DNA from: Podospora anserina
Taxonomy: Eukaryota
Direction of reading: 5' to 3'
DNA length: 64,000 nucleotides
Assembly (NCBI GenBank): GCA_017654855.1
Contig: CM030332.1
Coordinates: 3,968,001-4,032,000 of the forward strand
This document shows, one piece after another, positions 5,632 through 24,769 of the stretch. The position numbers and the translations under genes were made by a program. The stretch's first letter is position 1. Every line of letters starts with the position of its first letter. Under the pieces are notes generated by a model. It had not been told where the DNA came from and ran no database searches. It saw only the letters and a list, made by a program, of their open reading frames with translations.

Positions 5632-8600
5632 ATGTCGAATATGGGGTCGAGAACGAAAGATGATGAGCCGGTTAATGTTCTGTCGCTGGGTAAGTTCATC
5701 TACACTTCGGACTAGGGGATGAGCAGCTAATCAGTTGTGGTTTTAGATGGTGGAGGTGTACGAGGTGTTTCGTCGTTGGTGATTCTGGATCGGATTATGG
5801 AAAAGATTCAGAGGAGGGATGGGCTGGAGGAGATACCGAAGCCTTGTGACTATTTTGATATGATTGCTGGGACGAGTACAGGCGGGTGAGTATCTTTGTG
5901 ATTTTGTGTAGTGACCTAGACTGACGAGCGGTTGGTTGTAGGCTTATCGCAGTCATGTTGGGGAGACTAAGGATGTCTACTACTGAGGCCTTGAAGGCAT
6001 ACGACGATTGTGCTGCGAGTATCTTCAACAAGAAGAACAGGAAGACGGGGCAGTGTCGGACAAGTACAAGTCCACTGCACTGAAGGAAGCTGTTCAGAAG
6101 TTGGTCAAGGAGAGGGGAATGGGGGAGATAATGAGGGACCCGAAAAATCCCAAGAAGGGAAGGTGATTGTGTGTGTGATGCCTGCGGATTCTGTTGCGAC
6201 GGGGGAGACGAAGCTGGTTCGCTCTTTTCAGGGTGAGGATGATTGGGATAGTGAGATCAGGATCTGGGAGGCTTGCCGAGCGACGACTGCTGCTTCGAAA
6301 TATTTCAAGCCGCAGGAGCTGGGTGCAGGTGTACGCAAGGGGTTATTCATTGACGCGGCAGTTGGCTTCAACAATCCGGCAAATTACCTTTTGAAGGAGG
6401 CGCTGGATGAGTTTGGATCTCGCCGCCGCTTTAGATGTTTGATCAGTATTGGTACGGGTACGAAATCGATTGAGACTGTGAGGGTGAAGACTGGATTCAA
6501 GAACTACACGAAGGCCTGGGGGCAGCTTCAAGGTCTTATTGGGATGGTCAAGAATGTGGCTACCGACGCGGAGACGTCACATAAGCAGATTCATGACAGG
6601 TTTTCACGCTTTCCTGGGTCGTATCATCGGTTCAATGTACCGGATGGTGCCAAGGAGGTTGAGCTGGATGAATATAAGAAGATTCCGCAGCTCAAGGCCT
6701 TGACTAGGGATTACCTCGGTGGGGATAGTGTAGGTCGACAATACCTGAGGTGGTGGAGGGCTTGGGGGCTCGTGGCAGGTTCAAGCATGGGTTGACTTTG
6801 GGCCATGCCTGTAAGAAGCAACCGACTCACAAACTAGGTCTTGTTTGGGTATGCTAACAATGTTCCAGACTCTCCGGACAGTGACCAGCTATTTCTCTCA
6901 GACAGATCCAAGGCGATGGGAATACCGAGCAGCTTCTTCATAGGGAGACAAGATGTGCTGAACAAAATCGATCAAGTGTTTTGCGAGCGCGACACAGGAG
7001 GAGTTCCAAGGAGGGAATTTCTTCTGTGGGGGATAGGAGGCGTTGGGAAAAGTGAAGTTGCCCTCAAGGCGGCAGAGAACCTGGATGGAGGGTGGGCACA
7101 GTTCCATCACTTTATGTCCCTGGGCCGGTTACTGACAAAACCAAGATTGAAATATATCTTTTACGTCGATGGGTCAGAAAGATCTACGATTATTCATTCG
7201 TACGCCGAGATTTCTAAACGATACAACCTGGGCGGTACCAATCCAGAAACAATGTTCCACATGGCACTGGAATGGACGGGGCGCTTGGCAGACGAATGGC
7301 TCTTGATTTTTGACGACTGCAACTTGAGTGAGCGCGCCGGTTTCATACCGGGCAGAGGAAAGGGCAACATCATCTACACATCACGCTTCAATGGCCTTGA
7401 GCACAACTTCCCGGCACACCTTGTCTACCACGTTGAACCTCTGGCCGAGAGGGACGCCGTTGAACTTCTTTTGGGAGCTTCTGGTCTCTTGGATGTGACA
7501 TCTGATTCAGACAAGGCTGGCCCTACGGTCCCGACACGACGAGCTCCAACAGGCGAGGAAACAGCTCTGGCAAATGAAATTGTTCATGAGCTTAGCTGCA
7601 TGCCTGTCTGCGTCGACAAAGCGGCTGCAGCTATCAGAGAGAGAGGAATGGAACTGGATGTATATCTCAAGGAGTTGCGTACACAAAAGGTTCGAGTCGC
7701 TACAGACCCCCGCTTCAAGGACACAAGTGTTGAGACTCAAGCAGCGTACGCAACTCTAGAGCTATCCTACGACCAGATCACAGCCATCCGTCATCGTGCC
7801 GGGAGAAGTGAAGAAGGACGCGCGGCACTCTTCGCCATGAAGGTCTTGAGCTTGTTGTCGTGCTATCACTATCAAGGATTTTCAACGGAAATTCTAACGA
7901 GGGCGGTGTTGAATCGGCGGAGTTGCAATGCCGACCTTTCTTACCCCTTGAAGCGCATTTTTCAAACCCCAGACAAAGGTTGGGATGATATGATGCAAGA
8001 GGACGGAGAAGGGGGCTGGGAGGTTCTGTTCTTTGCTCACGGGCTTCAAGTCTTGCGACGTTACTCCTTGGTCAGGCTGGCTCCTGACCGCCTCACCCTG
8101 TCCATGCATACCCTGGTTCATACTTGGGCTCAGCAAAGGATGGATCCAGAAGCTCGTGCTGAGGTTTGCTGGCTGGCAGGGGTTTTGCTCAGCGATGCAA
8201 TGACACCATGCTTGATTTTGAAGAACCGGAGGTATGCTATCGGTATGGCACCTCACATCGACTGTTGTTTCGCCATCGTACCAAAGACCCGGGATACTAT
8301 CCAGGAACACGATAATGCCCGTGTCCTTGGTCTCAAGCGCGGCGATGTGGTAGTTGGCCCTAAAAACATAACGTACCCAGTGGACGAGTACTACAATGCC
8401 CATCTTTTGTTCAGACTCGGGTGGTTTTACAGTGCTGTACAGCAGTTCAAACAGGCTGAATATTGCTGGAAGACCTGCCTTCGGCTTTTCAAGTATCAGG
8501 AGGATCCGTTTGGATGGGGTGCTATAAATACACTGACGCACCTGGCTACACTTTACCACGAGCATGGGTTTCTCGGCGAGGCAGAAGCGATGCATTGGGA

Positions 8601-10059
8601 GGCCATCGGCAGACTGGAGGCCAGAAAGCGAGAACGAGAACAGTACCTTCTGAAGGAACTAGAAAAGCGGGAGTTCGAAGAGAAGGCCAGTGTTTCAGCA
8701 CCGCAACGAGGGAGATTGCTGAAGACGGCCCTCGAGAAGACTACCCCGCAGCTTTTTTCCGCCCTTTCTTCTAAGGAGATGGAAGCCAGAATATTCCAGA
8801 CGTTCACTGCAACTGTCGTCAACCCTCTCGCTCGCCACAGGCCCGCAACCAACAGACGAAGTCCCATCGGAGCAGAGGTGGAAGTTCACGAGTCTACCGA
8901 CACTGCTGAAGATGCTGTGGCCACTGTCAGAAAGAAAAAACGCGCTGAAGAGACGGACTCTCTTGATGATCTCGAGGCTGAAATTCTCCTCAGGCACGGA
9001 AGGCTAGCAAGGGTACTGAAAGACCAAGGCAGAAACAAGAATGCAAAGAACTTGATGAACTGGGTCGTCCAGAAATGCCAAGAGGAACTGGTCGAGGATT
9101 CCCCCGAGCTTCTGAGACTTCAGAATGAGGCGAAGGCGATGACTGAGCCAAAGGACATGGACTGGTTCAAGAGACACGTGGACATGATGAACGAATCCGA
9201 CACCAACCAAAGCCTCGCCTTCTTCCAAACTGACGCGATTTACGAGCTGTTCGATCATTGGTGCTGGTCGATGTACCTCGCCGGCCGGTATTCTATGGCG
9301 ATCGATATGTACAAGAAATTCATCCCTAGGGCCGTGGATGTGTATGGATATCATAACCCGAAAGTCCTGAAGATGATGCGGCAAATGGCGGAGGCGGCCT
9401 GGTCTGCCGACAGGCTGGATGATGCCGTGTTCATTGCTGAGTAATGTCTCTTGCGGGCAGAAGATGTTTACCAGCTGTCACATATGGAGGTGATACTGGC
9501 CACGGAGCTACTTGCCAAAGCCCTTGGTAAGCAACGACCTGGAAGTGACAAGGAGGCGGAGGATATGTTTCGGCTTGCTCTGAACCGGGCGCAGTCCAAT
9601 CTTCCGAAGAATCACCCCGTCACTGAACGAATCAAGATAGAGTTTGATTCTTTCAAGCACCCACAGGAGCCTTCATACCTGACAGGTGCTAAGAGTCTGG
9701 AAGAGAGGTGGCTTGATCTCAAGGCTGATGTGAAGGCTCACTTTGCGGAGCTTGGGATGCTCAACGAGTACGCCTTAAGACTTCATGATTTCAAGGGCCT
9801 ACAGCCATGGAGATCCGAAGAGGAGTACCAGCGAAGATTGAGCAAGTTTTCGGTGCTGGCGCGTGCTCCTGGGAAGCTATTAGGCATCAAAAAGCCGGTA
9901 ATCGAAGGGCTATCCACCACCATAACGAGAAACGACCATGGAATTCAGCCTGAGGGAGGAGCCTCTCGGAAATCATCGACATCAAAGGGAAGGGTGTCGA
10001 TAGGGGCGACAACGATTTCAATGCTGCGAACACGCCGATCAGAGTATAGCATAGTTTGA
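5632..10059 (+). pseudogene. Patatin-like phospholipase-NB-ARC-TPR NLR, copy A; disrupted as sequenced
   Basis: ATG at 5632. Introns 5690-5746, 5886-5941, 6811-6868 and probably 7092-7145. Patatin motifs DGGGVRG and GTSTG, Walker A GIGGVGKS, Walker B WLLIFDD, MHTLVH, and TPR-like helices. Alignment to copy B needs +1 base near 6047-6050, 6157-6161 and 6740-6741. In-frame TAA at 9442-9444, with homology continuing after it. Confidence 0.8.
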
Positions 10060-10489: not shown

Positions 10490-13400
10490 ATGTCAACAGA
10501 CGATGAAGCAATCAATCTGCTGTCTTTTGGTAAGATAAAGCATCTGTATCAGAGTGGTGAGGGTAAGAGAACTAACATCATACAGATGGCGGAGGTGTCC
10601 GAGGTGTCACATCACTGCTTATTATCCACGAAATCATGATCAAGATCAAGGAAAGACACGGATTAGCTGAAATACCCAAGCCTTGCGATGTCTTCCACAT
10701 GATAGCCGGGACCAGCACGGGAGGGTGAGTACTCGATCCAGCAGGATAGTCTCTCTACAACTAACATCTGACCCAGCCTCATTGCCATCATGCTCGGCCG
10801 GCTTCGAATGTCCACCGAGGAAGCCTTACGCCAGTACGACGTCTGTGCCGAGAATATCTTCTCGTCCAAGAAGTGGGCGAACATCACAGAAAAGTTTCGT
10901 AGCACCCCGATGATAAATATTATCCAGAAACTCGTGGCGGAGAAAGACATGGGGGAAATGATGCGCGATCCTGCAAAGCCAGCAAAGGGTAAGGCGGTGG
11001 TTTGTACTATGCCGCGGAAGAGGGCGAATCCGAAGAATGTTCGGCGGATTCGCTCCTTTTCACCAGAAAAGGATAATTGGTAAGCTTTGTGCTGTTTGAA
11101 GTTTGGTTACCTGCATCGGGTGCGCTGACATTCTGGAATTGAATAGGGACAAAGAGGTGAAGATATGGGAGGCTGCCAGGGCCACAACGGCTGCTACCTT
11201 TTACTTCAAACCACAACCACTCACGGTCTCAACACCTCAGGGTGGTTCAAAAATTGAAGACTACATTGACGCTGCCTTTGGGGTTAATAACCCTACCAAC
11301 GAGCTCATCAAGGAAGCGGTTGCCGAATTTGGGCCCAGTCGACGGCTTGGTTGCTTGATCAGCATTGGGACTGGGACTAAACAGGAGCGTGTAATTTCCA
11401 GAGCTGCAAGTGGGTTGAGGAACGTCTGTGATATGTGGGGGAGTATATTTGATGTCGGGATGGCCATGAAGGACATGGTTACCAATGCCGAACTCGTGCA
11501 TTTCGACCTGGAAATGCGACTGAGACGAAAACCGGATGCCTACTTTCGCTTCAACGTTCCTCTTGCGGCAGACGAAGTCAGTCTGGCCCAGTATGGCAAG
11601 ATAGGAAAGCTCAAATCGATGACCGCTAAATACCTCTGCGAACCGGAGGTGGTTGGCAACATTGAGAGGGCGGCTGATATTTTGGAAACCGAGAATGCTG
11701 AACACCACCTGAACCTCGGAGCCCTATGTGAGTAGAAGGAGGTTGCTCTGAAGAATTCATTGCTGACGGGAGCCATAGCTGAACCAAGCGAAACAAGGCC
11801 TGACGAAAACCTAAAAGCAAACCTGATGGGTGAGGCAAGCCGGTACTTCACGGGAAGAAACCACATCATGGGGATCCTGAATACATTCTTCTCCGATCGA
11901 GAAGACGAGACTGTTCCTCGAAGAGAGTTCTGCCTCCATGGCCTTGGCGGTGTTGGGAAAACACAGATTGCGTTGAAGGCAGCCAACATATTCCGTCATG
12001 GGGATCCCGAGCTGGGCATACCGAGGAAGCGAAGGTTCCCGCATATTCTATATGTGGACGGCACCGACAAGACAACCATCAGCCAAAGTTATGCAAGCAT
12101 TGCAAGAGATGAATTTGGCATCGAGGCCAGTGGCAACTCTGACCAGTTGATGAGACAAGCTCTTCAGAAAATGGAACGGCTTGACGAGGATTGGTTTCTG
12201 ATTTACGACAACTGCAACCAGGAAGACCGCCGAGAGTTGCTACCGAAGGGGGACACAGGCAATGTTCTATTCACCACGAGAAACCGGGTGGTGCGAAACC
12301 AGATGCGAGATGAATGCGTCTATGATGTCGAGGTGTTGGAGGAACTGGACGCTATCCGGCTTCTCCTGACAGCCTCGGGATCAAAATACGCTGATCTGAA
12401 CGCATGGGACCAGTCAATAGGCAAGGAAATCGTCGAGGAACTTGGCTATCTGCCCCTCGCCATCGACCAGGCAGCTGCGTACATCAGAGAAGCTCCATGT
12501 CCCCTTGATGGCTACCTGGAAGTATTCCGCAAGCAAAGGGTCGAACTACTCCGAAACCCAAAGTTCAAAGGCTCGCTCGCACAGAACCAGGCCGTTTACA
12601 CCACATTCGAAGCATCTTACAAAGCCATCGCCCAGCTTGAACTGCACAACAAGAACACGCTTGGTAGAAACGCCGGTCTTGCTCTCCGAGCTCTCGATCT
12701 GGTATGTTTCTGGCACAACGAGAACATTCCAGTCAAAGTTGCTTGGTGGGGAGGCGTATCCTGGAAGAATCGACTCGACATGGGCAAGGACATGCCCGCG
12801 CTGGAAGAGCACTTGGCACAACTCACCGGGGACGAAACGATGACCTGGCGGAAGTTCTTCTTCCAGTTGAGCGAATCTAGGGATGGAGAATTCCCAAGCG
12901 CCCTCGACATCCTCGAACGGTACTCAATACTTACAGTGAAGGAACGGGAACTCGCCTCAATGCACGTCTTGGTTCACTCCTGGGCACGGGACCGGATGAA
13001 GGCTGAACACAGGGCACGACAAGCCCTTGTGTCAAAAGTCCTACTGTTGGACTCGATTGGCGACACACTCACCGCCACCTACGCACGTTCCTATCTCCAT
13101 TCGATTTACCCCCATGTTCGGGCGTGTCTTGAACACTCCACATGGGGATCTAGATCCCTCCATCTACCGTACGAGCTCGTCTTGAGAGGCAAATACGCGC
13201 ACATCCTCACCTTTCAGAAGCGTTTTGGTGAGGCCGAAGCCGAATACCTCGATATCATTCACTTGAGCAAATTGTCTATCGGGCCTACCACTTGGGCGGT
13301 TCAGCGGCCCCTCTGCTCTCTAGGGAAGCTCTACCATGAAATGGGTCGTTTGCGCGAAGCTGAGTTGACGTATCTCGAATGCATTGATCGCTGCATCTTG

Positions 13401-14867
13401 GAGAAGGAAGCAAATCGGATGGAGATAGAGGGGCGCGTAAAGGCACAACTTGCGCAACTGCGTGCCATCCCCAAGCGAAAGAAGCAGAATAAGAATGACG
13501 AATCGGACGAGGACAGACCGCCATCACCGCAGCTGAGCGAAGAGGAGATTGCCCAAGCAGCTCGCTGGTTCGTACCCGACTGGAATAGCACGGATAGCTG
13601 GCAGCTTCAGATTTCCAACATCGAAGAGAACCTTGCCAGGGTTTACTACGACCAGGCAAACACTGAAGATGATCTCATCTATTCCGCAGATCTTTTGGCC
13701 AGCGCGCTGTACCGACGAAAGAAGATACTCCACCCTGAAAACATGGAACTCTGGAGGACAGAAGATGAGTATCGAAGCAGAACCCAGCATCGGGATGTGA
13801 AGTACTGGCTGTTTCGGTTCGAAGCGGCAATGAAGACGTTCAAGTCTGAAGAGGACCAAGTCGCTTTCATTACAGGAGAATACCACGGCCGCCTTGTCCA
13901 GAATATGGCTAACAGCATGGTTGCCATGCGGCAATGTGTCAAGTATCACAAAGGCGAGGATTATTGGGCAGAAGACTTGAAGTGGATGTGGGAACAAGCC
14001 CACAAATACTACGGGACGATACTCTGGAATGGATTTATCAAGTGGTTCGGAGAGTCCGACTACAGGTGTCTCGAGGTGATGCGGCGGATGGTCAAGTGCC
14101 TCATTGGCTTGAAAAGATATGAAGAAGCTGAAGCACTCGCGAGAAGGTGCCTGGCGTCGAGCATTGTGGGCTATGGCGAATGTCACCAGCAAACGATCCT
14201 ATCCCTGGAAAAATTGCACGAGGCTATTGCTTGTCGACTGGGGGGTTATGATCTCGAGTCGGTTTATGTTATCAAGGAGGCTTTTCACAGGGCAGACGCC
14301 GTTTTCGGAGTAGACCACCGGCTCACGAAACGCACAGGCAAGAAAACCACCCGCGCCATGGAGAACTACCAAGAGAATCTCTCCGACTGGGCGTCAATGA
14401 GCCAAAACATCTTGACTGATGCTCACTGGGAGTATGGGGCAATGGAAGACCAGGAGACAAGAGAGGTGCTACTCGGTGAACGCGCAAAGCACCACCTCGT
14501 ATCGTACACGATACCTGACCCAAATTTCGACGCACGCCTTCGTAAGATGGCAGAAGCAAACGCAAAAGCGGTCTTGGAAGAGACGATGATGGAGGTTGAA
14601 TCAGAGGTGGCTCCAACAACAACAACAACAACAACACATACTCACTCAAGACATGTTGACATAACACCAGCAGCCACAAGCGAACCACCATCGCAAAGCA
14701 CTTCAAAATCACTTGGTCACCACCACAATCACGAGTCATTTGGCGAATCACAAGCGTCTACACTTTTCTCCCAAGCTCGAGAAGAGCAATACACATCTGA
14801 CAGCAGCAGCGGGGATACCAAAAGAAGTGGTGTAAACGATATCAAGGGAAAGTCAGTGGCAGAATAG
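10490..14867 (+). CDS. Patatin-like phospholipase-NB-ARC-TPR NLR, copy B; intact, about 1383 aa; PLP-1/PaPlp1-like allorecognition receptor
   Basis: Exons 10490-10529, 10586-10724, 10777-11079, 11147-11727 and 11779-14867 total 4152 nt and stay in frame. Motifs DGGGVRG, GTSTG, Walker A GLGGVGKT, Walker B WFLIYDN, YLPLAI, MHVLVH, and TPR-like SLGKLYHEMGRLREAELTY. Confidence 0.92.
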
Positions 14868-16014: not shown

Positions 16015-18363
16015 TCACCCCGACCTATCCACCGCCTCCACAATCCACTGCGCCTCTATGGCGCTCACCTTCTTCGCATAATTCTTTTGCGTATACACAT
16101 GCTCCAAAAACATAACCGCCTCCTTCTTCTGCCCGTGGAGCACACTAGCCGGGTGAACAGCCACCACATGCTTCCCATGCGCCGTCACATAACTGTTATC
16201 CGGCGCCAGAATCGCCGTCTTGAGCGCAAAACCCCTCAGGAAACACTTCAATATCACAGCGGATCTCTCTGGCGTGATAGGGTAGAAAGGCTGCGGATCC
16301 GCAGGCGGATGTTCCATCATCTTTTGCCTAACACAAAGCTGCCTCAGCTGTTTCCGAATATTCATCGCTTGCTTCATATTCCTGGTGTTGATCTTCCTGT
16401 CCTTGCACCAGCGTGCTCTATCGGCGTTCTCGGCGCTGTATTTCTGGATCGTGGTCAGGTACGTGATGAGATCACCTTCTCTCCTCCGCAACTCTTTCCT
16501 GAACTCCTCGGCTTCTTCCTTGGTCTCCTCTGACTGGATCTGAAGGAAAATGTCGTCACCTGCCGTGATGCACGAGATGATGTCGATGACCTCTAGCAGG
16601 CAGTCGTATTTTGGGGTTGCTGCTGCGATCAGAACACGAGCATATGGCGGTGGGACGGGGAACATGACCATCTTGCGCCCGATATCCGTGATGGACCCAT
16701 CATCTGCCAGCGCGCCGAGAATATGAAGATGGAGCAAAGCTTTTTCCACCGACTCAAATTCTGGGGGGTCCATGAGGGGAAAAGCCAGTACATCGTCAAT
16801 TCCTCTCGCCTTCATCGTCAGCACAGCGTTGAGCACATCCGTCCGGAGAATTTCGGGGAGGTCTGTCTTCTCAAGCGATTCGTAAGTCTCCTCTGTGTAG
16901 AGTCTGAAACACTTTCCAGGACCTTCTCTGCCAGCACGACCAGTCCTCTGAATAGCTGAAGATTTGGAGATCGGCTTGGCCAAGAGTGATTCCATGCCCA
17001 ATCGAGGTCTGTATTGCTTCACCTTCGCCTTACCACAGTCTACCACAAATCGCACACCGGGAACTGTGACTGAGGTTTCGGCGATGTTGGTAGCCAACAC
17101 GATCTTCCTGGTGTTCTTGTCCTTGGTAGGTTGGAAAGCTTTGTGCTGCGCCTCCATGGAAAGCTGGCCGAAAAGAGGCAAGACCACAACCTTGGGGACG
17201 CCAGCTGGCAATGTTTCCGCATGTTCTTCGATCAAGCGCTGGGCAGCTTCAATCTCCTCTTGACCAGTGAGGAAGGCTAGGATGTCTTTCCTTCCATGTT
17301 TGTCGAAGAGGGACTCCTGCTTGTGAATCTTGAATAGTGTGCTCAGGAGGGCTTCTTGGATATCTGGGACTGGTTTTGGCGTATGCGTGATCTCAACCGG
17401 AAACTGACGGCCTTCGATCTGGAGGAAATCCACGGAAGTTTTGGGTCTTGTCGCAGGAGGGGCACATTCTTCAGACCCTTCCAGATCGACGTCGGAAAAG
17501 AACTTCTTGATGCTGCCGACATTCGCCGTAGCACTCATGATGACGATTTTGAGCGGGATGCCGCCGCGACCAGCCTTGTCGCCAGAGAGGATCTGCTTCA
17601 GAAAACCAGATAGCAGATCAACATCGACGCTACGCTCGTGAATTTCATCCACGATGATTGCGCTGTACTGTCGGAGGTGCGGGTCGCGAAGAAGCTCTTG
17701 AAGCAGCATGCCTTCTGTGACATATTTGATCCTGGTGCCTTTCGGAACGCGGTGGTCGAAACGAACTGAATAGCCAACAATGCCGTCCGAAAGTGGGCCG
17801 TGTCTCTCCGTGTCCTTCTTCTTCCCTGGGATGTTGGCCTCCTTGGCCACGCGGTGCGCCAAGGTGGTTGCAGCGACTCGACGTGGTTGCGTGACTGCGA
17901 TCATACCTCCCACAGCCATTTCCTGCACGCCCCCATCTCCCTTGATTTTGGCCTTCTTCCTTTGACACCAGTCCTCTTGGATCAGAAATTGAGGCACTTG
18001 GGTACTCTTTCCGGAACCCGTCTCACCGACAAGAACCAAGACATCGTTTTGACGCAGCCTTTGTCGAATATCATCTTGCCGTGACCAAAGCGGGAGTGCT
18101 TGACGAGCGTCGAAATATTTTGGGTTGCCGACTAGTTTCAAACGCCCGCCTGCCTTGGGGTCTTTGCTTGTTGTCGATATTCCTTCCTTTGAGTCTGAGA
18201 GGCCCTCATTTAATGTCGACACGCCCTCTTTTGCTAGTGTGAGGGCGTCAGTTGAAGATTGCGAGGCCTCAAGCTTGGGCCTTTTCGTTAAATAACCACT
18301 CAAGTCGAGGATTTTCCCCCCCACACGAATACCGTCGCCGTCGTTTTTCCTTTTCTTGGCCAT
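16015..18363 (-). CDS. DHR2: DEAH-box ATP-dependent RNA helicase, DHR2-like
   Basis: GETGSGKST, TQPRRVAA, DEIHER, MSAT, ATNIAETSVT and QRTGRAGR. First ATG is at 18363 (MAKKRK). The subfamily assignment is inferred. Confidence 0.8.
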   Translation of the reverse strand: MAKKRKNDGDGIRVGGKILDLSGYLTKRPKLEASQSSTDALTLAKEGVSTLNEGLSDSKEGISTTSKDPKAGGRLKLVGNPKYFDARQALPLWSRQDDIRQRLRQNDVLVLVGETGSGKSTQVPQFLIQEDWCQRKKAKIKGDGGVQEMAVGGMIAVTQPRRVAATTLAHRVAKEANIPGKKKDTERHGPLSDGIVGYSVRFDHRVPKGTRIKYVTEGMLLQELLRDPHLRQYSAIIVDEIHERSVDVDLLSGFLKQILSGDKAGRGGIPLKIVIMSATANVGSIKKFFSDVDLEGSEECAPPATRPKTSVDFLQIEGRQFPVEITHTPKPVPDIQEALLSTLFKIHKQESLFDKHGRKDILAFLTGQEEIEAAQRLIEEHAETLPAGVPKVVVLPLFGQLSMEAQHKAFQPTKDKNTRKIVLATNIAETSVTVPGVRFVVDCGKAKVKQYRPRLGMESLLAKPISKSSAIQRTGRAGREGPGKCFRLYTEETYESLEKTDLPEILRTDVLNAVLTMKARGIDDVLAFPLMDPPEFESVEKALLHLHILGALADDGSITDIGRKMVMFPVPPPYARVLIAAATPKYDCLLEVIDIISCITAGDDIFLQIQSEETKEEAEEFRKELRRREGDLITYLTTIQKYSAENADRARWCKDRKINTRNMKQAMNIRKQLRQLCVRQKMMEHPPADPQPFYPITPERSAVILKCFLRGFALKTAILAPDNSYVTAHGKHVVAVHPASVLHGQKKEAVMFLEHVYTQKNYAKKVSAIEAQWIVEAVDRSG

Positions 18364-19252: not shown

Positions 19253-20592
19253 TTAGGGAGAGTATTCCGCTTTCATGCGATTGTTCTGCGCACGAACTTT
19301 GTCCTTGGCAGCATCGGACTATCAAATTTTGTTAGCATGTTGATACATTCATCATAAGGAAATCGTCGACTCACCTTCACCGTTAGCCTGGTCACCTGGT
19401 TGATCTGTGCATCCGTCCGCACACTGAATCCCTTGGCCAGCATATTCATAGTCGAGACACTCAGTGCAATCTCTGTCATATCATCATCAATCTGATTGTT
19501 GAGTTCCTCTTGCTCTCCGTCATTATCCTCAAAGGCCCACTTTGAGCGATCGGCTTTGTTAAAGCCTAGGGTTGGCCGTCCCACTTGAGCAGTGGCGGCC
19601 TCCAGCTCTCGCTTCCGCAAAGCCTGCTCCTCCCGGAGCGCATCTCTATCAATCTCCCTCTCTCGCTCAGACTGAGCCTTCCTCGCTGAACGCTCGGCAA
19701 GCTTTCCTTTGCTATTTGCGGCCAAGTTGAAGAGTGACGAGTTGGCAGCGTCCAGATTGTCGAGGTGTGCGTGCGCCAAGCGAGCCTGATGCTCTGCAAC
19801 TTTGAGTTAGCATCGAGCACGAGTAAACTATAACGACATAGAACTGGAAAGCTTACTTGATTCATCGAGTTGCTGCTCAACCTTGTTGAGAATAGCCTCA
19901 TCTCTGTCATACATCTGGTGCATGCCCACCATACGCTCCACTCCTTCAGCAGCCTTCAGCCGGGCGCGAGCTGAGCTCTGGGCTGTCTCTTGAATGGTGT
20001 GGATGATTTCTCCCTTTTTGGTTTCTGCCTCGTAATCATCCTTCTCTTCCGCCGTCATGTTCTCATAATTGTCGGGAATCTCTGGACGAGGAGGTGGTGC
20101 CATTGCCGAATAGGGATCTCTCTGTTGACGCCCATCGAACAGGGGGTTTGGTTCACTCAAACCACCGTATCCTCCTTGTCTCGGGGGGGGAGCCTGAACG
20201 TTGTTGTTCTGGCCATAGCCGGCAGCATTATCGTATCTGTTGCCGCCATATCCGCTGGGGGCGCCAGGCCGATCATTCCCATATCCTATCGAAGGGCTGG
20301 ATGCAGCCGAATCATATCTCTTCTTGTTGTCTGTAAAGGCGGCATCATTCTGAGCGGAGTAAGGCGGTGGGGCGGAGCTTCCAGGACGAGGACCAGATGG
20401 TAAGCCGCCGCCGTAGCCACCGGGACGAGGACCGGACGGCAGTCCTGAAGGGACTCCGCGATTTCCGCCGTATGCAGGAGCGGACGAGTATGTGTCGCTG
20501 GACGGCGGTTGTTGCGCATAAGGGTTCACAGGTGTCTCGTTGGGCTTGTCTTTATCCGACTTGCTGCGGAATAGAGAGCTGAACTTGCCCAT
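19253..20592 (-). CDS. SEC9: Sec9/SNAP-25-like Qbc t-SNARE, about 406 aa, divergent allele
   Basis: ATG at 20592 (MGKFSSLF). N-terminus is rich in G/Y/P/N (NPYAQ, GGYGG). Introns 19794-19856 and 19319-19374. Two SNARE-length heptad helices are separated by a linker containing ADRSKWAFEDND. Confidence 0.85.
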
Positions 20593-22150
20593 GATGGGAT
20601 GCTGTGAATGGTTTAGTACGATAAACAAGACAAAAGGTTGAGTCGTCTGATGACAACGAGATGGTAAAACAGGTGTTGACAAGATGAAAAGGAAGGAAAG
20701 TATGTGATGTTAGGTGTTCAGGGGGCGTTTTGGCGTAAAGACCCCCTAACAGCTGGCGGGGCTTTGGGTGGAGCTCTGCGGCGGCGGGACGGTGGGATCC
20801 AGACGAGCTTGTGTCTTGAGACTGTTCCAGGCTGTGACCTATTCGGTAAAAGAGGAAAGCCCCTGCCTCGCAATGCTGACGACCACTTGCTTGACCGCAG
20901 TTAAGCAATTGGGGGTCGCTGTCCTAATCAACCGCCGGATCGTGACCGCCATGCAGCCACTTGGCGCTCCGCCACCAGGGATGATGCTTCAAAAGAAGGC
21001 TTCTGGAAATCCATTTTCAGCTTGTTTCTTTTCTTACCTTGTCAACCGCAGACTCCATCTTGACTTCGTGTTCATCGTCTGTTTCTTGGTCTCCTTTGAA
21101 ACAGCCTGACTTCCACTCTTCCTGCGAATCTGTCAACCCTGAAAATTGCGGCCCTTCGAGTTTCTCAGGGTCCTGTATCTCGCTGGATTGATGCAGGTCC
21201 AGTGGTGGGGGGCGCCGATGTTGCGACTGGTCCACTGCCATCTTGGCTTCGGGCTGGGGGTTTCGTCCGCTCCTATCGCTGTCGCTGGGGGGTTTGCTGG
21301 AATTGCTGGAATCACTGCACAGTGGTTCGCTGGAATAACTGAAATCGCTGCCTCGTGGCGAGAGGGGCTCCAGCTGGAGTTCTTTGATCAGCGAAGGATC
21401 CATGATGGCTCTAGATTGACGATTGACTGTTCATGGAACAAGCTGAGCGAAGTGGCTTCTCAATACAATGAAAGCCGTTCATTGAGAGAGGGTGGTGGCT
21501 TGCAAGAACAACTAAAAGTCTATCTGATAAGAAGAAAATACGACAGTACCTCAATTCAGGCGCCTTTTGCGCCTGAACAAAGGTACTGCCGTAATACGAA
21601 GCTAACGGAGAACAGGCCTTGTAACCTGGTCTCTGTTGCTGGCGACTGCCCAGTCACAGCGCGAATGCCATCCCAGGCCGCTTGCTCATTGACTGCACTT
21701 GGACCTTACATAAGTTCCCCAAATCTTGATGTGTCACTTTCGTCGGTGTGAGAGTCACCTTTTTTTTTTGTTGACGACAAATTCAAGGTGTTTGATAAGA
21801 ACACCTGAATTGATTCATCCCCTCCCACTGTTGACAGTACACCGAGTCACGAGTATCTTTATAACCCATTATCAAAATGTTTTCTTCTATTTAGATCGCC
21901 GTGATTCCCTTGCAGGCGCAGTCGAGTCCTCGTCCTTCAAGCCCTTTGCCTTAACATTGACCTGAAGCACGCATCTTCCGAGTTCAAGATGACACCACGA
22001 ATACACCTACACCTACACCGAATATATTTACTAGAAATGTCGATCAACCATACAATAGCATATCTACTCACCTAAGCACGCCTAACTCGCAGCATTTCAC
22101 AACAGCCACCTACAGATCTTACAAGGAATCGCCCCTAAAACCCAGCTCGA

Positions 22151-24769
22151 ATGTCTGTCTTTACTTTCGACCCTCTAGGGTCCGATCCAGCACGAGCGTC
22201 CTCTCCATGGCTTAAACCAACCGATCCTCACAAGAAGTCTAGTCTCGCTGCGGATCATCCGCCAACGCGGAAAGGAACCATTGGGTCAGGCCTCTTATCA
22301 GACTACGGCGTCACCAAACTGGAGCCAGAGCCGCAAGAAGGCCCAACCGAGTACAAACTGCACCTCCTGCTGAGGTCTCGGAGGAGATATGAGCATATCA
22401 GCACCGCAACACGAATATCTGGCTCCATCAACCGCCCTTCAGTCGAATCCAGAACTTCCAAGCCAGCACCAGCCCTCCCAGGCTGTTCCACCACTGCACA
22501 AACTCGACAGGACCGCCTCGAGCACCTCACTACTCAGCTCCTATGGAGGCTGCAACAGTCATGTCCGTATCACTCTGGAACTGCCACCACAGTCCCGGTG
22601 ATACCGCAGCTCCCTGACGAGAACTTCGTTCGGGACGCCCCGATCAAGCTGGGAAAACTGTTGCCGGGCCTGGAAGCTTCGAGAGGAGCTCTGTACGAGA
22701 TCGGAGTTGCAGATGACGGCACGCTTGCTGGTCTCACCAAGGATGAGCTTGACGAAAGTCTCAACACACTTCGCATCATGGCTGCCAGCTTGGGATGCAA
22801 CATGGAGGTGCTCCGCAAGGTTGCGGTTGGTGACTGCGAATGGATTGACTCATCCGACTCTGAAGAAGGGTCGTGCTCAGGACCAAAAGGTCAACGGCGA
22901 CAGGCCAGGTTGTGGGTGGCCGAGGCCCTGGTTACACCCAATCTTCGACCTAGAGATGCCAGTCATACAGGTGCGGCACGGTCAACCGGGCTCCCTGACC
23001 CGACACACGGCCCGCTATCTACGGACCAGCTGCGTGTCACACTTACAGGGCCGACGACCTCTGGAAAATCAACACTTCTCGGCGCTCTCTCGACCGGGAC
23101 GCTGGATAATGGGCGTGGGAAAAGTCGGCTTGGGTTGCTCAAGCACCTGCATGAGGTGGCCTCGGGTATCACGTCGTCTGTCACTCAGGAGCTTGTGGGA
23201 TATGATGGTGACAGGATTGTCCACTATGGCCATCAAGAAGTTGAGTCCTGGATTGACATTCACAACTACACCAAATCAGGGCGGCTTGTCTATCTGGTGG
23301 ACTCTGCAGGACACCCAAAATACCGGCGTACTATTCTTCGAGGCATTGTAGGATGGGCACCGCACTGGACTCTTCTCTGCATAGCAGCCAACAGTTACGA
23401 CATCCCCACGCTTGTTGAGCCCGCAGCGGATGCCTATGGCCCCGAACAGAGCATGGAATTGGCATCAGCCCACCTCGACCTTTGTCTACGGCTTCGGCTT
23501 CCCTTGGTTGTGGTTATGACAAAACTGGATTTGGCAAGCGTAACCATCAAGAAAACTCTCAGCAGGATCTTGTCAAGCATCAAAAAGGCCGGCCGAGTCC
23601 CCATGTTAATCAAAAGTGGACCAGCAGGGCATACCGACCTCAGCATTGTCTCGGATCAAGACGCAGCTCTCATCAAAGACGTTGCGGAAGCGCTTCGTAC
23701 AAACGACGACCCATCGGCCATCGTCCCTATCGTCCTCACCAGCGCAGTAGACGGCCGAGGAATCGGCACACTCCACGCCTTACTCCGGAGCCTACCTGTC
23801 CCCCCTACCCCAACGTCGCACGACTACATCGGTGCAGCCTTGAACCCGGAACAGCCCGCCTGCCTGTTCCACGTCGAAGATAAATACAGCCTCCCCGCCT
23901 CCTGCGCTCTTGCCACCAGCGACGCGGATCAGCAAACCGATCTAGGAACGGTAGTCGCGGGGTATCTAAGGTTTGGCAGCCTGTCGATCGGGGACAAGAT
24001 CGTGGTTGGCCCTTTTCCTTCCGAGGATGCTGCCGGCTCACCACCGCGTGACCAGTCCCCGGCGGGAAGTTATGGGCTTTCTTTGTCGCATCCGTCGTCT
24101 AATGAACTGAACCGGATCGCTGCTAGGAATGCGGTTTCTGCTTCGGCGATTAAAGGGGAGTGGCACACTGCGAGTATTGTGAGCATACATAACTTGAGGC
24201 TGCCGGTGCAGACGCTTGAGGCGGGGCAGGTTGGGTCTATTGGGATTATTTTTGATCAGGTCAGGGGTGAGGATGGCGGGGTTCCTATGGGGACGCCGAG
24301 GTTGAGGAAGGGGATGGTGTTGGCGGTGCCGAGCCAGCATATGGTTTCTTCTGGGCTGTCGCTTCAGGCTGTTAGTGGGTTGACGGCGGTGTTTGACGGT
24401 GATAATGCTTCTGTTAGCGAGCTGACGGTGGGGAGTTTGGTGAATATCTATGTTGCTAGTGTGAGGACCGCGGCGAGGGTGTCACGGGTGTCGAGAGTGC
24501 AAGCTCCAGGAAGGAGAGACAAGGGGAGGTCGCCAACGGATGATATGGATGACGTATTTGGCCTAGGGGGAGATGACAACGCCGCTCAGCAAGGGCAGTC
24601 GGAGGTGAGGGTTGGGGTTGAGAATGGGGAGGTGGAGGTTCAGCTGGATTTGATGAATACACGGGAGTGGGTTGAGCTTGGGAGTAAGATTTTGGTGCTG
24701 GAGGGGAGGAATAGGGATCGGTCGGGACTGGAGGGGTTCGTAGGGAAGGTGGTTGAGATTTCGGAGTGA
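22151..24769 (+). CDS. GTPBP1/GTPBP2-like translational GTPase
   Basis: N-terminal EYKLHLL...LLWRLQ...ALYEIGVADDG. G motifs GPTTSGKST, HLHEVASGITSS, DSAGH, TKLD and SAVD. EF-Tu-like domain II GTVVAGYLRFG. Confidence 0.85.
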   Translation: MSVFTFDPLGSDPARASSPWLKPTDPHKKSSLAADHPPTRKGTIGSGLLSDYGVTKLEPEPQEGPTEYKLHLLLRSRRRYEHISTATRISGSINRPSVESRTSKPAPALPGCSTTAQTRQDRLEHLTTQLLWRLQQSCPYHSGTATTVPVIPQLPDENFVRDAPIKLGKLLPGLEASRGALYEIGVADDGTLAGLTKDELDESLNTLRIMAASLGCNMEVLRKVAVGDCEWIDSSDSEEGSCSGPKGQRRQARLWVAEALVTPNLRPRDASHTGAARSTGLPDPTHGPLSTDQLRVTLTGPTTSGKSTLLGALSTGTLDNGRGKSRLGLLKHLHEVASGITSSVTQELVGYDGDRIVHYGHQEVESWIDIHNYTKSGRLVYLVDSAGHPKYRRTILRGIVGWAPHWTLLCIAANSYDIPTLVEPAADAYGPEQSMELASAHLDLCLRLRLPLVVVMTKLDLASVTIKKTLSRILSSIKKAGRVPMLIKSGPAGHTDLSIVSDQDAALIKDVAEALRTNDDPSAIVPIVLTSAVDGRGIGTLHALLRSLPVPPTPTSHDYIGAALNPEQPACLFHVEDKYSLPASCALATSDADQQTDLGTVVAGYLRFGSLSIGDKIVVGPFPSEDAAGSPPRDQSPAGSYGLSLSHPSSNELNRIAARNAVSASAIKGEWHTASIVSIHNLRLPVQTLEAGQVGSIGIIFDQVRGEDGGVPMGTPRLRKGMVLAVPSQHMVSSGLSLQAVSGLTAVFDGDNASVSELTVGSLVNIYVASVRTAARVSRVSRVQAPGRRDKGRSPTDDMDDVFGLGGDDNAAQQGQSEVRVGVENGEVEVQLDLMNTREWVELGSKILVLEGRNRDRSGLEGFVGKVVEISE

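What the first reader, a model, noticed from the sequence alone, without database searches (positions are those of the whole stretch)
19253..20030. Sec9 SNARE motifs are unusually divergent, and the first seems to lack the zero-layer Gln
The first helix reads ...VGMHQMYDRDEAILNKVEQQLDES..., where fungal Sec9 usually has roughly LGAQGERL (from memory), placing Asp at the Q layer. The second helix (MTEIALSVSTMNMLAKGFSVRTDAQINQV) is also far from consensus. Such drift in an essential SNARE fits diversifying selection driven by NLR surveillance or by antagonist effectors.
Basis: partly seen in the sequence, partly recalled or inferred. Interest (0 to 1): 0.7.

Follow-up and report, generated by a model that had tools for sequence, protein, structure and literature searches.

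The report
Known guarded fungal secretion gene variant
This is the already described Podospora membrane-fusion gene sec9, watched by a neighbouring immune receptor; one central glutamine really is replaced by aspartate, a change that marks an old version of the gene shared across related fungal genera and is probably tolerated.

Summary
The gene is Podospora anserina sec9 (PODANS_1_11410; 406 aa; splicing seen in 4 of 4 RNA contig sets) at the published het-Z allorecognition locus, 4.4 kb from the patatin-NB-ARC-TPR NLR PaPlp1. Asp231 sits at layer 0 of the Qb helix (yeast Q468); the Gln in MHQM fits no register. The Qc helix keeps Gln375; the genome's Snc1 and two Sso syntaxins keep R and Q, so the bundle is predicted Q/D/Q/R. 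Divergence of Sordariomycete Sec9 was noted in 2009, and NLR guarding with balancing selection is published. Asp is not unique (11 of 134 Sec9 representatives), has a Vti1a precedent, and is conserved, not diversifying: Qb core layers differ at 0 of 16 positions in four near relatives. What I add: the gene is a mosaic. Its N-terminal half follows species, while the SNARE half falls into an Asp class and a Gln class (15-28% identical in Qb), each found in both the Triangularia/Podospora and Cladorrhinum groups. None of 113 Sec9s had lost both Gln (weak signal). The second P. anserina allele and dN/dS were not obtained. Known locus, real but modest detail.

The parts
19857..20592 (-). sec9 coding exon 1 of the short (406 aa) form: low-complexity N-terminus and first two thirds of the Qb helix
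   Evidence: equals P0003
19794..19856 (-). intron inside the Qb motif (63 nt, GT..AG)
   Evidence: skipped in 4 of 4 RNA contig sets
19375..19793 (-). sec9 exon 2: end of Qb, linker, most of Qc
19319..19374 (-). intron inside the Qc motif (56 nt, GT..AG)
   Evidence: skipped in 4 of 4 RNA contig sets
19253..19318 (-). sec9 last exon with TAA stop; no transmembrane tail
19753..19974 (-). Qb SNARE motif, layers -7 to +8 (residues 207-259)
19900..19902 (-). Asp231 (GAT) at Qb layer 0, where most Sec9 have Gln
19909..19911 (-). Tyr228 at Qb layer -1; in 0 of 131 other representatives (mostly Leu), kept in the four near relatives
19265..19479 (-). Qc SNARE motif, layers -7 to +8 (residues 351-403); fastest-changing part within the Asp class
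19405..19407 (-). Gln375 at Qc layer 0 (canonical)
20083..20115 (-). approximate mosaic junction (residues 160-170): identity to Triangularia verruculosa and Apiosordaria backusii Sec9 drops from about 75-80% to 15-35%
   Evidence: sliding identity
21038..21403 (-). alternative upstream coding exon, spliced over 20602-21037, adding 125 residues in frame (531 aa form)
   Evidence: joint in 3 of 4 RNA contig sets; annotated so in P0157/P0158; ORF
10585..14867 (+). PaPlp1 (Pa_1_11380) NLR: patatin (DGGG, GTSTG motifs), NB-ARC, TPR; start codon not mapped
   Evidence: identity and accession order (CDP23496.1 vs CDP23499.1)

Best explanation
This is the working, apparently single-copy Sec9 (Qbc-SNARE) of P. 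anserina and the guarded half of the het-Z locus. SHOWN here: intact spliced gene, Asp at Qb layer 0, Gln at Qc layer 0, canonical Arg in Snc1 and Gln in both Sso syntaxins, linked NLR, two deep SNARE classes cutting across genera. PUBLISHED (seen through reviews): the NLR binds a non-self SEC-9 and kills the fused cell; alleles are old and balanced. INFERRED: (1) Sec9 still zips with Sso and Snc1 into a four-helix bundle whose centre is Q/D/Q/R, the Asp carboxylate taking the Snc1 Arg as in Vti1a complexes; (2) balancing selection has kept two SNARE-half lineages since before the Triangularia/Podospora and Cladorrhinum groups split, while recombination near residue 165 kept the N-terminal half on the species tree; (3) Gln-to-Asp is a tolerated change that became fixed early in one lineage and is now held by purifying selection: a marker of the allele class rather than the residue that the NLR or an effector is chasing.
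For: Register and residue. Partners: Snc1 aligns to yeast VAERGE with Arg kept, both syntaxins keep the layer-0 Gln. Tolerance: in yeast Sso1 all layer-0 substitutions except Arg, Lys, Pro supported vegetative growth (PMC2600744, passages and section 7); Vti1a is a Qb-SNARE with Asp there (PMC9197314, passage); no R, K or P at layer 0 in 113 of 113 Sec9s covering both motifs. Mosaic: N-terminal tree rejects the Asp-class clade (p-AU 2e-5); SNARE-half tree gives Asp class 99/96 and Gln class 100/99 and rejects the species grouping (p-AU 4e-6). Purifying selection on the new core: 0 of 16 Qb layer differences in each of 4 near relatives. Locus.
Against: The second P. anserina allele was not retrieved, so within-species Asp/Gln polymorphism is not shown. 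One sequence per species and no synteny for the relatives: old paralogy with gene conversion, or introgression, is not excluded. The two classes were named after seeing the identity table, before the trees. The yeast tolerance data concern Sso1 (Qa), not the Sec9 Qb helix, where Q468R is non-functional, and all Sso1 substitutions lowered sporulation. No complex model and no dN/dS. The paralogue search is weak: a conventional Sec9 query missed even this gene.
Confidence: 0.72

Rival explanations
1. The rebuilt Qb centre (Asp231 with Tyr228) is itself adaptive: it alters what an antagonist effector or the NLR's TPR domain reads on the unassembled helix and helps define allele specificity.
For: Asp marks one whole class and is conserved in it; loss of a layer-0 Gln is concentrated in the Sordariomycete-rich part of the tree, 30 of 65 rows against 2 of 48, where NLR/SNARE pairs are reported; Asp at this site needs at least 5 changes on the tree.
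Against: The classes differ at 10-14 of 16 core and 29-31 of 37 surface Qb positions, so nothing singles out layer 0; within the class the change is concentrated in Qc; layer 0 is buried in the assembled bundle (PMC11344281, passages). No effector is known in the papers I saw.
Confidence: 0.15
2. Sec9 is simply under relaxed constraint in Sordariomycetes; the two classes are old duplicates or introgressed copies homogenised at the N-terminus, and the NLR link came later.
For: Divergent Sec9 is reported also for Magnaporthe and Chaetomium (PMC2639358, passage); introgression of one het-z allele between Podospora species is reported; no synteny checked here.
Against: [quoted passage not shown]
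Confidence: 0.1
3. The gene is a fusion-dead decoy for the NLR and another Sec9 does the secretory work.
For: Loss of the Qb Gln and a bulky Tyr at layer -1.
Against: Searches of the genome with this protein and with a Gln-class Sec9 found only this locus; Pezizomycotina usually have one Sec9; the gene is intact and spliced; the three PF12352 hits look like Vti1, Bos1 and Gos1 types (names by recall).
Confidence: 0.03

Closest known systems
P. anserina het-Z locus (PaPlp1 Pa_1_11380 / PaSec9 Pa_1_11410); Heller et al. 2018 PNAS, not readable here, seen through PMC13449251, PMC10890737, PMC12881547
   Same: It is this locus: same protein record, linked patatin-NB-ARC-TPR NLR, published old biallelism.
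   Different: Nothing at the level of the system. The layer-0 Asp, the junction near residue 165 and the reach of the two classes across genera were not in the passages that I could read; the primary paper and its supplement may already show them.
Neurospora crassa plp-1/sec-9 germling-regulated death; Botrytis Bcvic1/Bcvic2; Cryphonectria vic2/vic2a
   Same: NLR guarding a polymorphic exocytic SNARE, with trans-species haplotypes.
   Different: Four haplogroups in Neurospora; the Botrytis guardee is a syntaxin that varies in its N-terminal part. I did not identify the Neurospora alleles among my hits.
Yeast Sec9 / SNAP-25 Qbc-SNAREs
   Same: Two SNARE motifs in heptad register, linker, no membrane anchor; profile match E 2.4e-63 to yeast Sec9.
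   Different: Asp for Q468, Tyr at layer -1; about 12 of 53 Qb residues identical to yeast (counted by eye) against 34 of 53 for Snc1.
Mammalian Vti1a (Qb-SNARE with layer-0 Asp)
   Same: Asp in the Qb position acting like Gln (PMC9197314, passage).
   Different: Endosomal, membrane-anchored single-motif SNARE; not orthologous; no link to immunity.

Membership tests
Sec9/SNAP-25 Qbc-SNARE (orthologous group) | Two SNARE motifs joined by a linker, matching the Sec9 profile | tested here: met
   AlphaFold2 model with helices 181-263 and 339-404 (built on a Sec9 alignment, so not independent)
Sec9/SNAP-25 Qbc-SNARE (orthologous group) | Mostly hydrophobic or small residues at the 16 heptad layers, no gaps | tested here: met
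   layer tables; gap-free over 207-245
Sec9/SNAP-25 Qbc-SNARE (orthologous group) | No C-terminal transmembrane anchor | tested here: met
   protein ends in a polar tail, seen directly
Sec9/SNAP-25 Qbc-SNARE (orthologous group) | Forms a fusogenic four-helix bundle with Sso and Snc | not testable with these tools
Canonical 3Q:1R zero layer | Gln at layer 0 of the Qb helix | tested here: not met
   Asp231; so not filed as a canonical 3Q:1R complex
Canonical 3Q:1R zero layer | Gln in Qc and Qa, Arg in the R-SNARE | tested here: met
   Gln375; both Sso keep Gln, Snc1 keeps Arg
plp-1/sec-9 (het-Z) allorecognition locus | Linked patatin-NB-ARC-TPR NLR with patatin motifs and P-loop | tested here: met
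   Pfam NB-ARC 1e-8, TPR_12 6e-8, Patatin 0.0023; DGGG and GTSTG motifs; GLGGVGKT in the ORF
plp-1/sec-9 (het-Z) allorecognition locus | Record identity with the published locus | tested here: met
   P0003 = PODANS_1_11410, CDP23499.1; PaPLP1 = CDP23496.1; Pa_1_11380 = patatin/NB-ARC/TPR
plp-1/sec-9 (het-Z) allorecognition locus | Divergent SNARE allele classes shared across species | tested here: inconclusive
   two classes cut across genera, but no second allele from one species was retrieved; biallelism is published
plp-1/sec-9 (het-Z) allorecognition locus | NLR binds non-self SEC-9 and triggers cell death | not testable with these tools
   published, seen only in reviews

The most novel reading that the evidence does not exclude
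The Asp and Gln classes are the het-Z alleles themselves, kept by balancing selection since before the Triangularia/Podospora and Cladorrhinum groups separated. One species would then run its essential exocytic fusion on two Qb helices under 25% identical and with different zero layers (Q/D/Q/R or Q/Q/Q/R) against the same Sso and Snc1. More widely, immune-guarded Sec9s may give up either zero-layer Gln but never both, and never for a basic residue: a natural map of how far a SNARE core can be rewritten.
Probability: 0.45. Interest if true: 0.5.

Novelty: already known. Interest (0 to 1): 0.3.

Why it matters
The locus and its divergence are in print, so the headline is not new. The detail is useful: it gives a natural Sec9 with a non-canonical zero layer and unchanged partners, a junction that bounds the selected region to the SNARE half, and a sharp prediction for the other het-Z allele. 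These make allele-specificity mapping (Qb or Qc, core or surface) and the role of the zero layer directly testable in a harmless model fungus.

Tried and rejected
Gln226 of MHQM as layer 0: rejected (PSSM -114 bits; its column is mixed, Q in 14 of 80). The one-residue shift that phmmer drew in the N-terminal half of Qb against yeast: not kept, the multiple alignment is gap-free there; D231 is at layer 0 either way. Absence of a Pfam SNARE hit as proof of divergence: rejected, 5 of 5 other Sec9s also had no Pfam hit. RNA editing at the Asp codon: none seen; the single difference, 20574 G>T in 4 of 4 RNA sets, matches the named record P0003 and is read as a strain difference. Compensating change in partners at layer 0: none. 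Second sec9: none found, weak test (PF00835 rang nowhere). The other het-Z allele: not among 19 N-terminal hits nor among 24 listed runs, whose 14 DNA-like holders all had 0.99-1.00 of the words (no run was on record as RNA, the four laid were guessed RNA and showed splicing). Foldseek of the monomer model: no match at E<=0.001 of 500 counted; yeast Sec9 9nly_L ranked 29th (E 0.35, TM 0.82 by target length), not used as support. 'Never both Gln lost': 0 of 113, expected about 3; p 0.015 in the 65-row subset, 0.065 after dropping 6 near-relatives; the subset was chosen after seeing the tree, so it is a lead only. dN/dS: not run, no orthologue DNA held.

Full report
GENE. The finding lies in a minus-strand gene with coding exons 20592-19857, 19793-19375 and 19318-19253. 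Contigs of four runs from four studies, guessed to be RNA, skip both introns (4 of 4), and 3 of 4 also join an upstream exon over 20602-21037, giving the 531-aa form annotated in two sister species. The 406-aa product equals the named record PODANS_1_11410 of Podospora anserina except at residue 7. A patatin-NB-ARC-TPR gene ends at 14867. PMC13449251 (passages) names PaPLP1 of het-z as CDP23496.1; this protein is CDP23499.1; PMC3689799 (passages) lists Pa_1_11380 as patatin/NB-ARC/TPR. So this is the het-Z locus. That Pa_1_11410 is called PaSec9 is recalled, and I do not know from any call whether this allele is Z1 or Z2.

REGISTER. One-to-one phmmer reached yeast Sec9 only at E 1.5 but already set D231 against the Gln of LGHQSEQL; the primer table of PMC2063558 (passages) shows this Gln is Q468, the zero-layer residue. 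A profile search of 1.84 billion representatives gave 330 hits at E<=0.001, of which the best 150 were listed. I aligned all 150 with three more proteins (153 rows). Of 134 rows covering Qb, the D231 column holds Q 117, D 11, N 3, E 1, H 1, L 1 (the L row looks misaligned); of 132 covering Qc, the Q375 column holds Q 111, S 14, D 3, H 2, T 1, G 1. These are clusters at 50% identity ranked by likeness to the query, so divergent Sordariales are over-counted. A profile of 80 of these proteins matches yeast Sec9 at E 2.4e-63 and SNAP-25 at 2e-25, its conserved Q on the zero layer of both; D231 is in that column. A PSSM from 116 Q-bearing rows, with layer 0 left out, is positive for 1 of 23 registers, D231 (+17.2 bits); Q226 scores -114. 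Tyr228 at layer -1 is rarer than the Asp: 0 of 131 other rows.

HOW UNUSUAL. Against fungal Sec9 as a whole the protein is divergent but no outlier (21st and 37th from the bottom of 132). PMC2639358 (passages) already said in 2009 that Sec9 of P. anserina, N. crassa, M. grisea and C. globosum is clearly diverged. Asp at Qb layer 0 also occurs in Madurella, a Chaetomium, Lasiosphaeria ovina and Verticillium dahliae, at least 5 changes on a quick tree of 113 rows. Loss of either Gln is concentrated in one part of that tree, 30 of 65 rows against 2 of 48; named rows of the 65 are Sordariomycetes, but most rows were not named and relatedness inflates the contrast. No row has R, K or P at layer 0 and none has lost both Gln (0 of 113; p 0.015 raw, 0.065 after dropping 6 near-relatives).

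PARTNERS AND TOLERANCE. The genome's Snc1 keeps Arg (34 of 53 residues identical to yeast, counted) and both Sso-type syntaxins keep Gln, so there is no compensating swap; the predicted centre is Q/D/Q/R. In yeast, Sso1 tolerated every layer-0 residue except R, K and P for vegetative growth, though all lowered sporulation (PMC2600744, passages and section 7); Sec9 Q468R is non-functional. Vti1a is a Qb-SNARE with Asp there (PMC9197314, passage). An Asp facing the Snc1 Arg is therefore chemically mild (inference). A complex model was not available.

MOSAIC. Among eleven named Podosporaceae proteins, residues 1-165 group by kinship: P. anserina is 75-77% identical to Triangularia verruculosa and Apiosordaria backusii, 54% to Cladorrhinum PSN259. 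The SNARE half groups otherwise: Qb is 17-19% identical to those two species but 45% to PSN259; the linker 30-33% against 59%. The switch falls near residues 160-170. On trees of 18 of the 29 aligned rows, the N-terminal half rejects a clade of the six Asp-class rows (p-AU 2e-5) and holds the seven Triangularia/Podospora-complex rows together (98/97); the SNARE half gives the Asp class 99/96 and a five-row Gln class 100/99 and rejects the kinship grouping (p-AU 4e-6). Both classes occur in both kin groups. The classes were named before the trees were built, and the N-terminal tree carries a long-branch warning. This is the footprint expected of old balanced alleles with recombination outside the selected region; it extends the published statement that het-z biallelism predates the species complex. 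Old paralogy with gene conversion is not excluded, since synteny was not checked and the second P. anserina allele was not found.

WITHIN THE CLASS. In four near relatives Qb differs at 0 of 16 core layers each, and Qc changes faster than the rest of the protein (10/53, 9/53, 16/53, 19/53 differences; Fisher p 0.0007-0.011, comparisons not independent). Qc is also only 17% identical to PSN259, so it does not track the class as Qb and the linker do. The Asp is thus conserved; any ongoing diversification shows in Qc.

LITERATURE SEEN. Heller 2018: nothing (not held), known through passages of bioRxiv 10.1101/2022.04.03.486892, PMC10197012, PMC12881547, PMC10890737, PMC11138114, PMC7159315. PMC9262711 and PMC11344281: passages. 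Ten library searches showed no listing or passage on a zero-layer Asp in fungal Sec9; this does not cover Heller 2018 or the supplement of PMC13449251, which may bear on the allele classes.

VERDICT. Real observation, known locus, known divergence. The Asp is most likely a tolerated, conserved marker of one ancient SNARE class. Novelty: already known; interest 0.3, up to 0.5 if the two classes prove to be the two het-Z alleles.

Noticed in passing
window 21038-21468 and 20575-20751 (minus): Two 5' forms of the sec9 transcript: a short one starting just upstream of 20592 and a long one with an extra coding exon of 125 residues; similar N-terminal extensions are annotated in several relatives. 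The long joint has contig depth about 20 against about 400 for the short 5' end in two runs; contig depth is a poor measure. Function of the extension unknown.
   Followed up: partly
window 5995-10059 (plus): A second patatin-NB-TPR NLR directly upstream of PaPlp1 (probably Pa_1_11370, named as linked to PaPlp1), with an in-frame TAA at 9442-9444 followed by 204 more open codons in the same frame; premature stop or unrecognised intron not settled.
   Followed up: partly
window 19909-19911 (minus): Tyr at Qb layer -1, absent from 131 other representatives but kept in four near relatives; a bulky residue beside the shorter Asp could be a packing compensation (inference).
   Followed up: no
proteins (e.g. 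P0016, P0024, P0070, P0072, P0086): Qc layer 0 is Ser in 14, Asp in 3, His in 2 of 132 Sec9 representatives; these all keep the Qb Gln where both motifs are covered.
   Followed up: partly
window 11268-11294 (plus): The PaPlp1 patatin domain reads DAAFGVNNP where a DGG-type motif is usual (recalled); the Asp is kept.
   Followed up: no
window 16015-18357 (minus) and 22139-24769 (plus): A DEAH/HA2 helicase gene lies between the NLR and sec9, and a GTP_EFTU-domain gene follows sec9; ordinary housekeeping neighbours.
   Followed up: no
window 20574: One base differs from all four RNA contig sets and from the named record (Leu7 here, Ile7 there): a strain difference within the same allele class.
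   Followed up: yes
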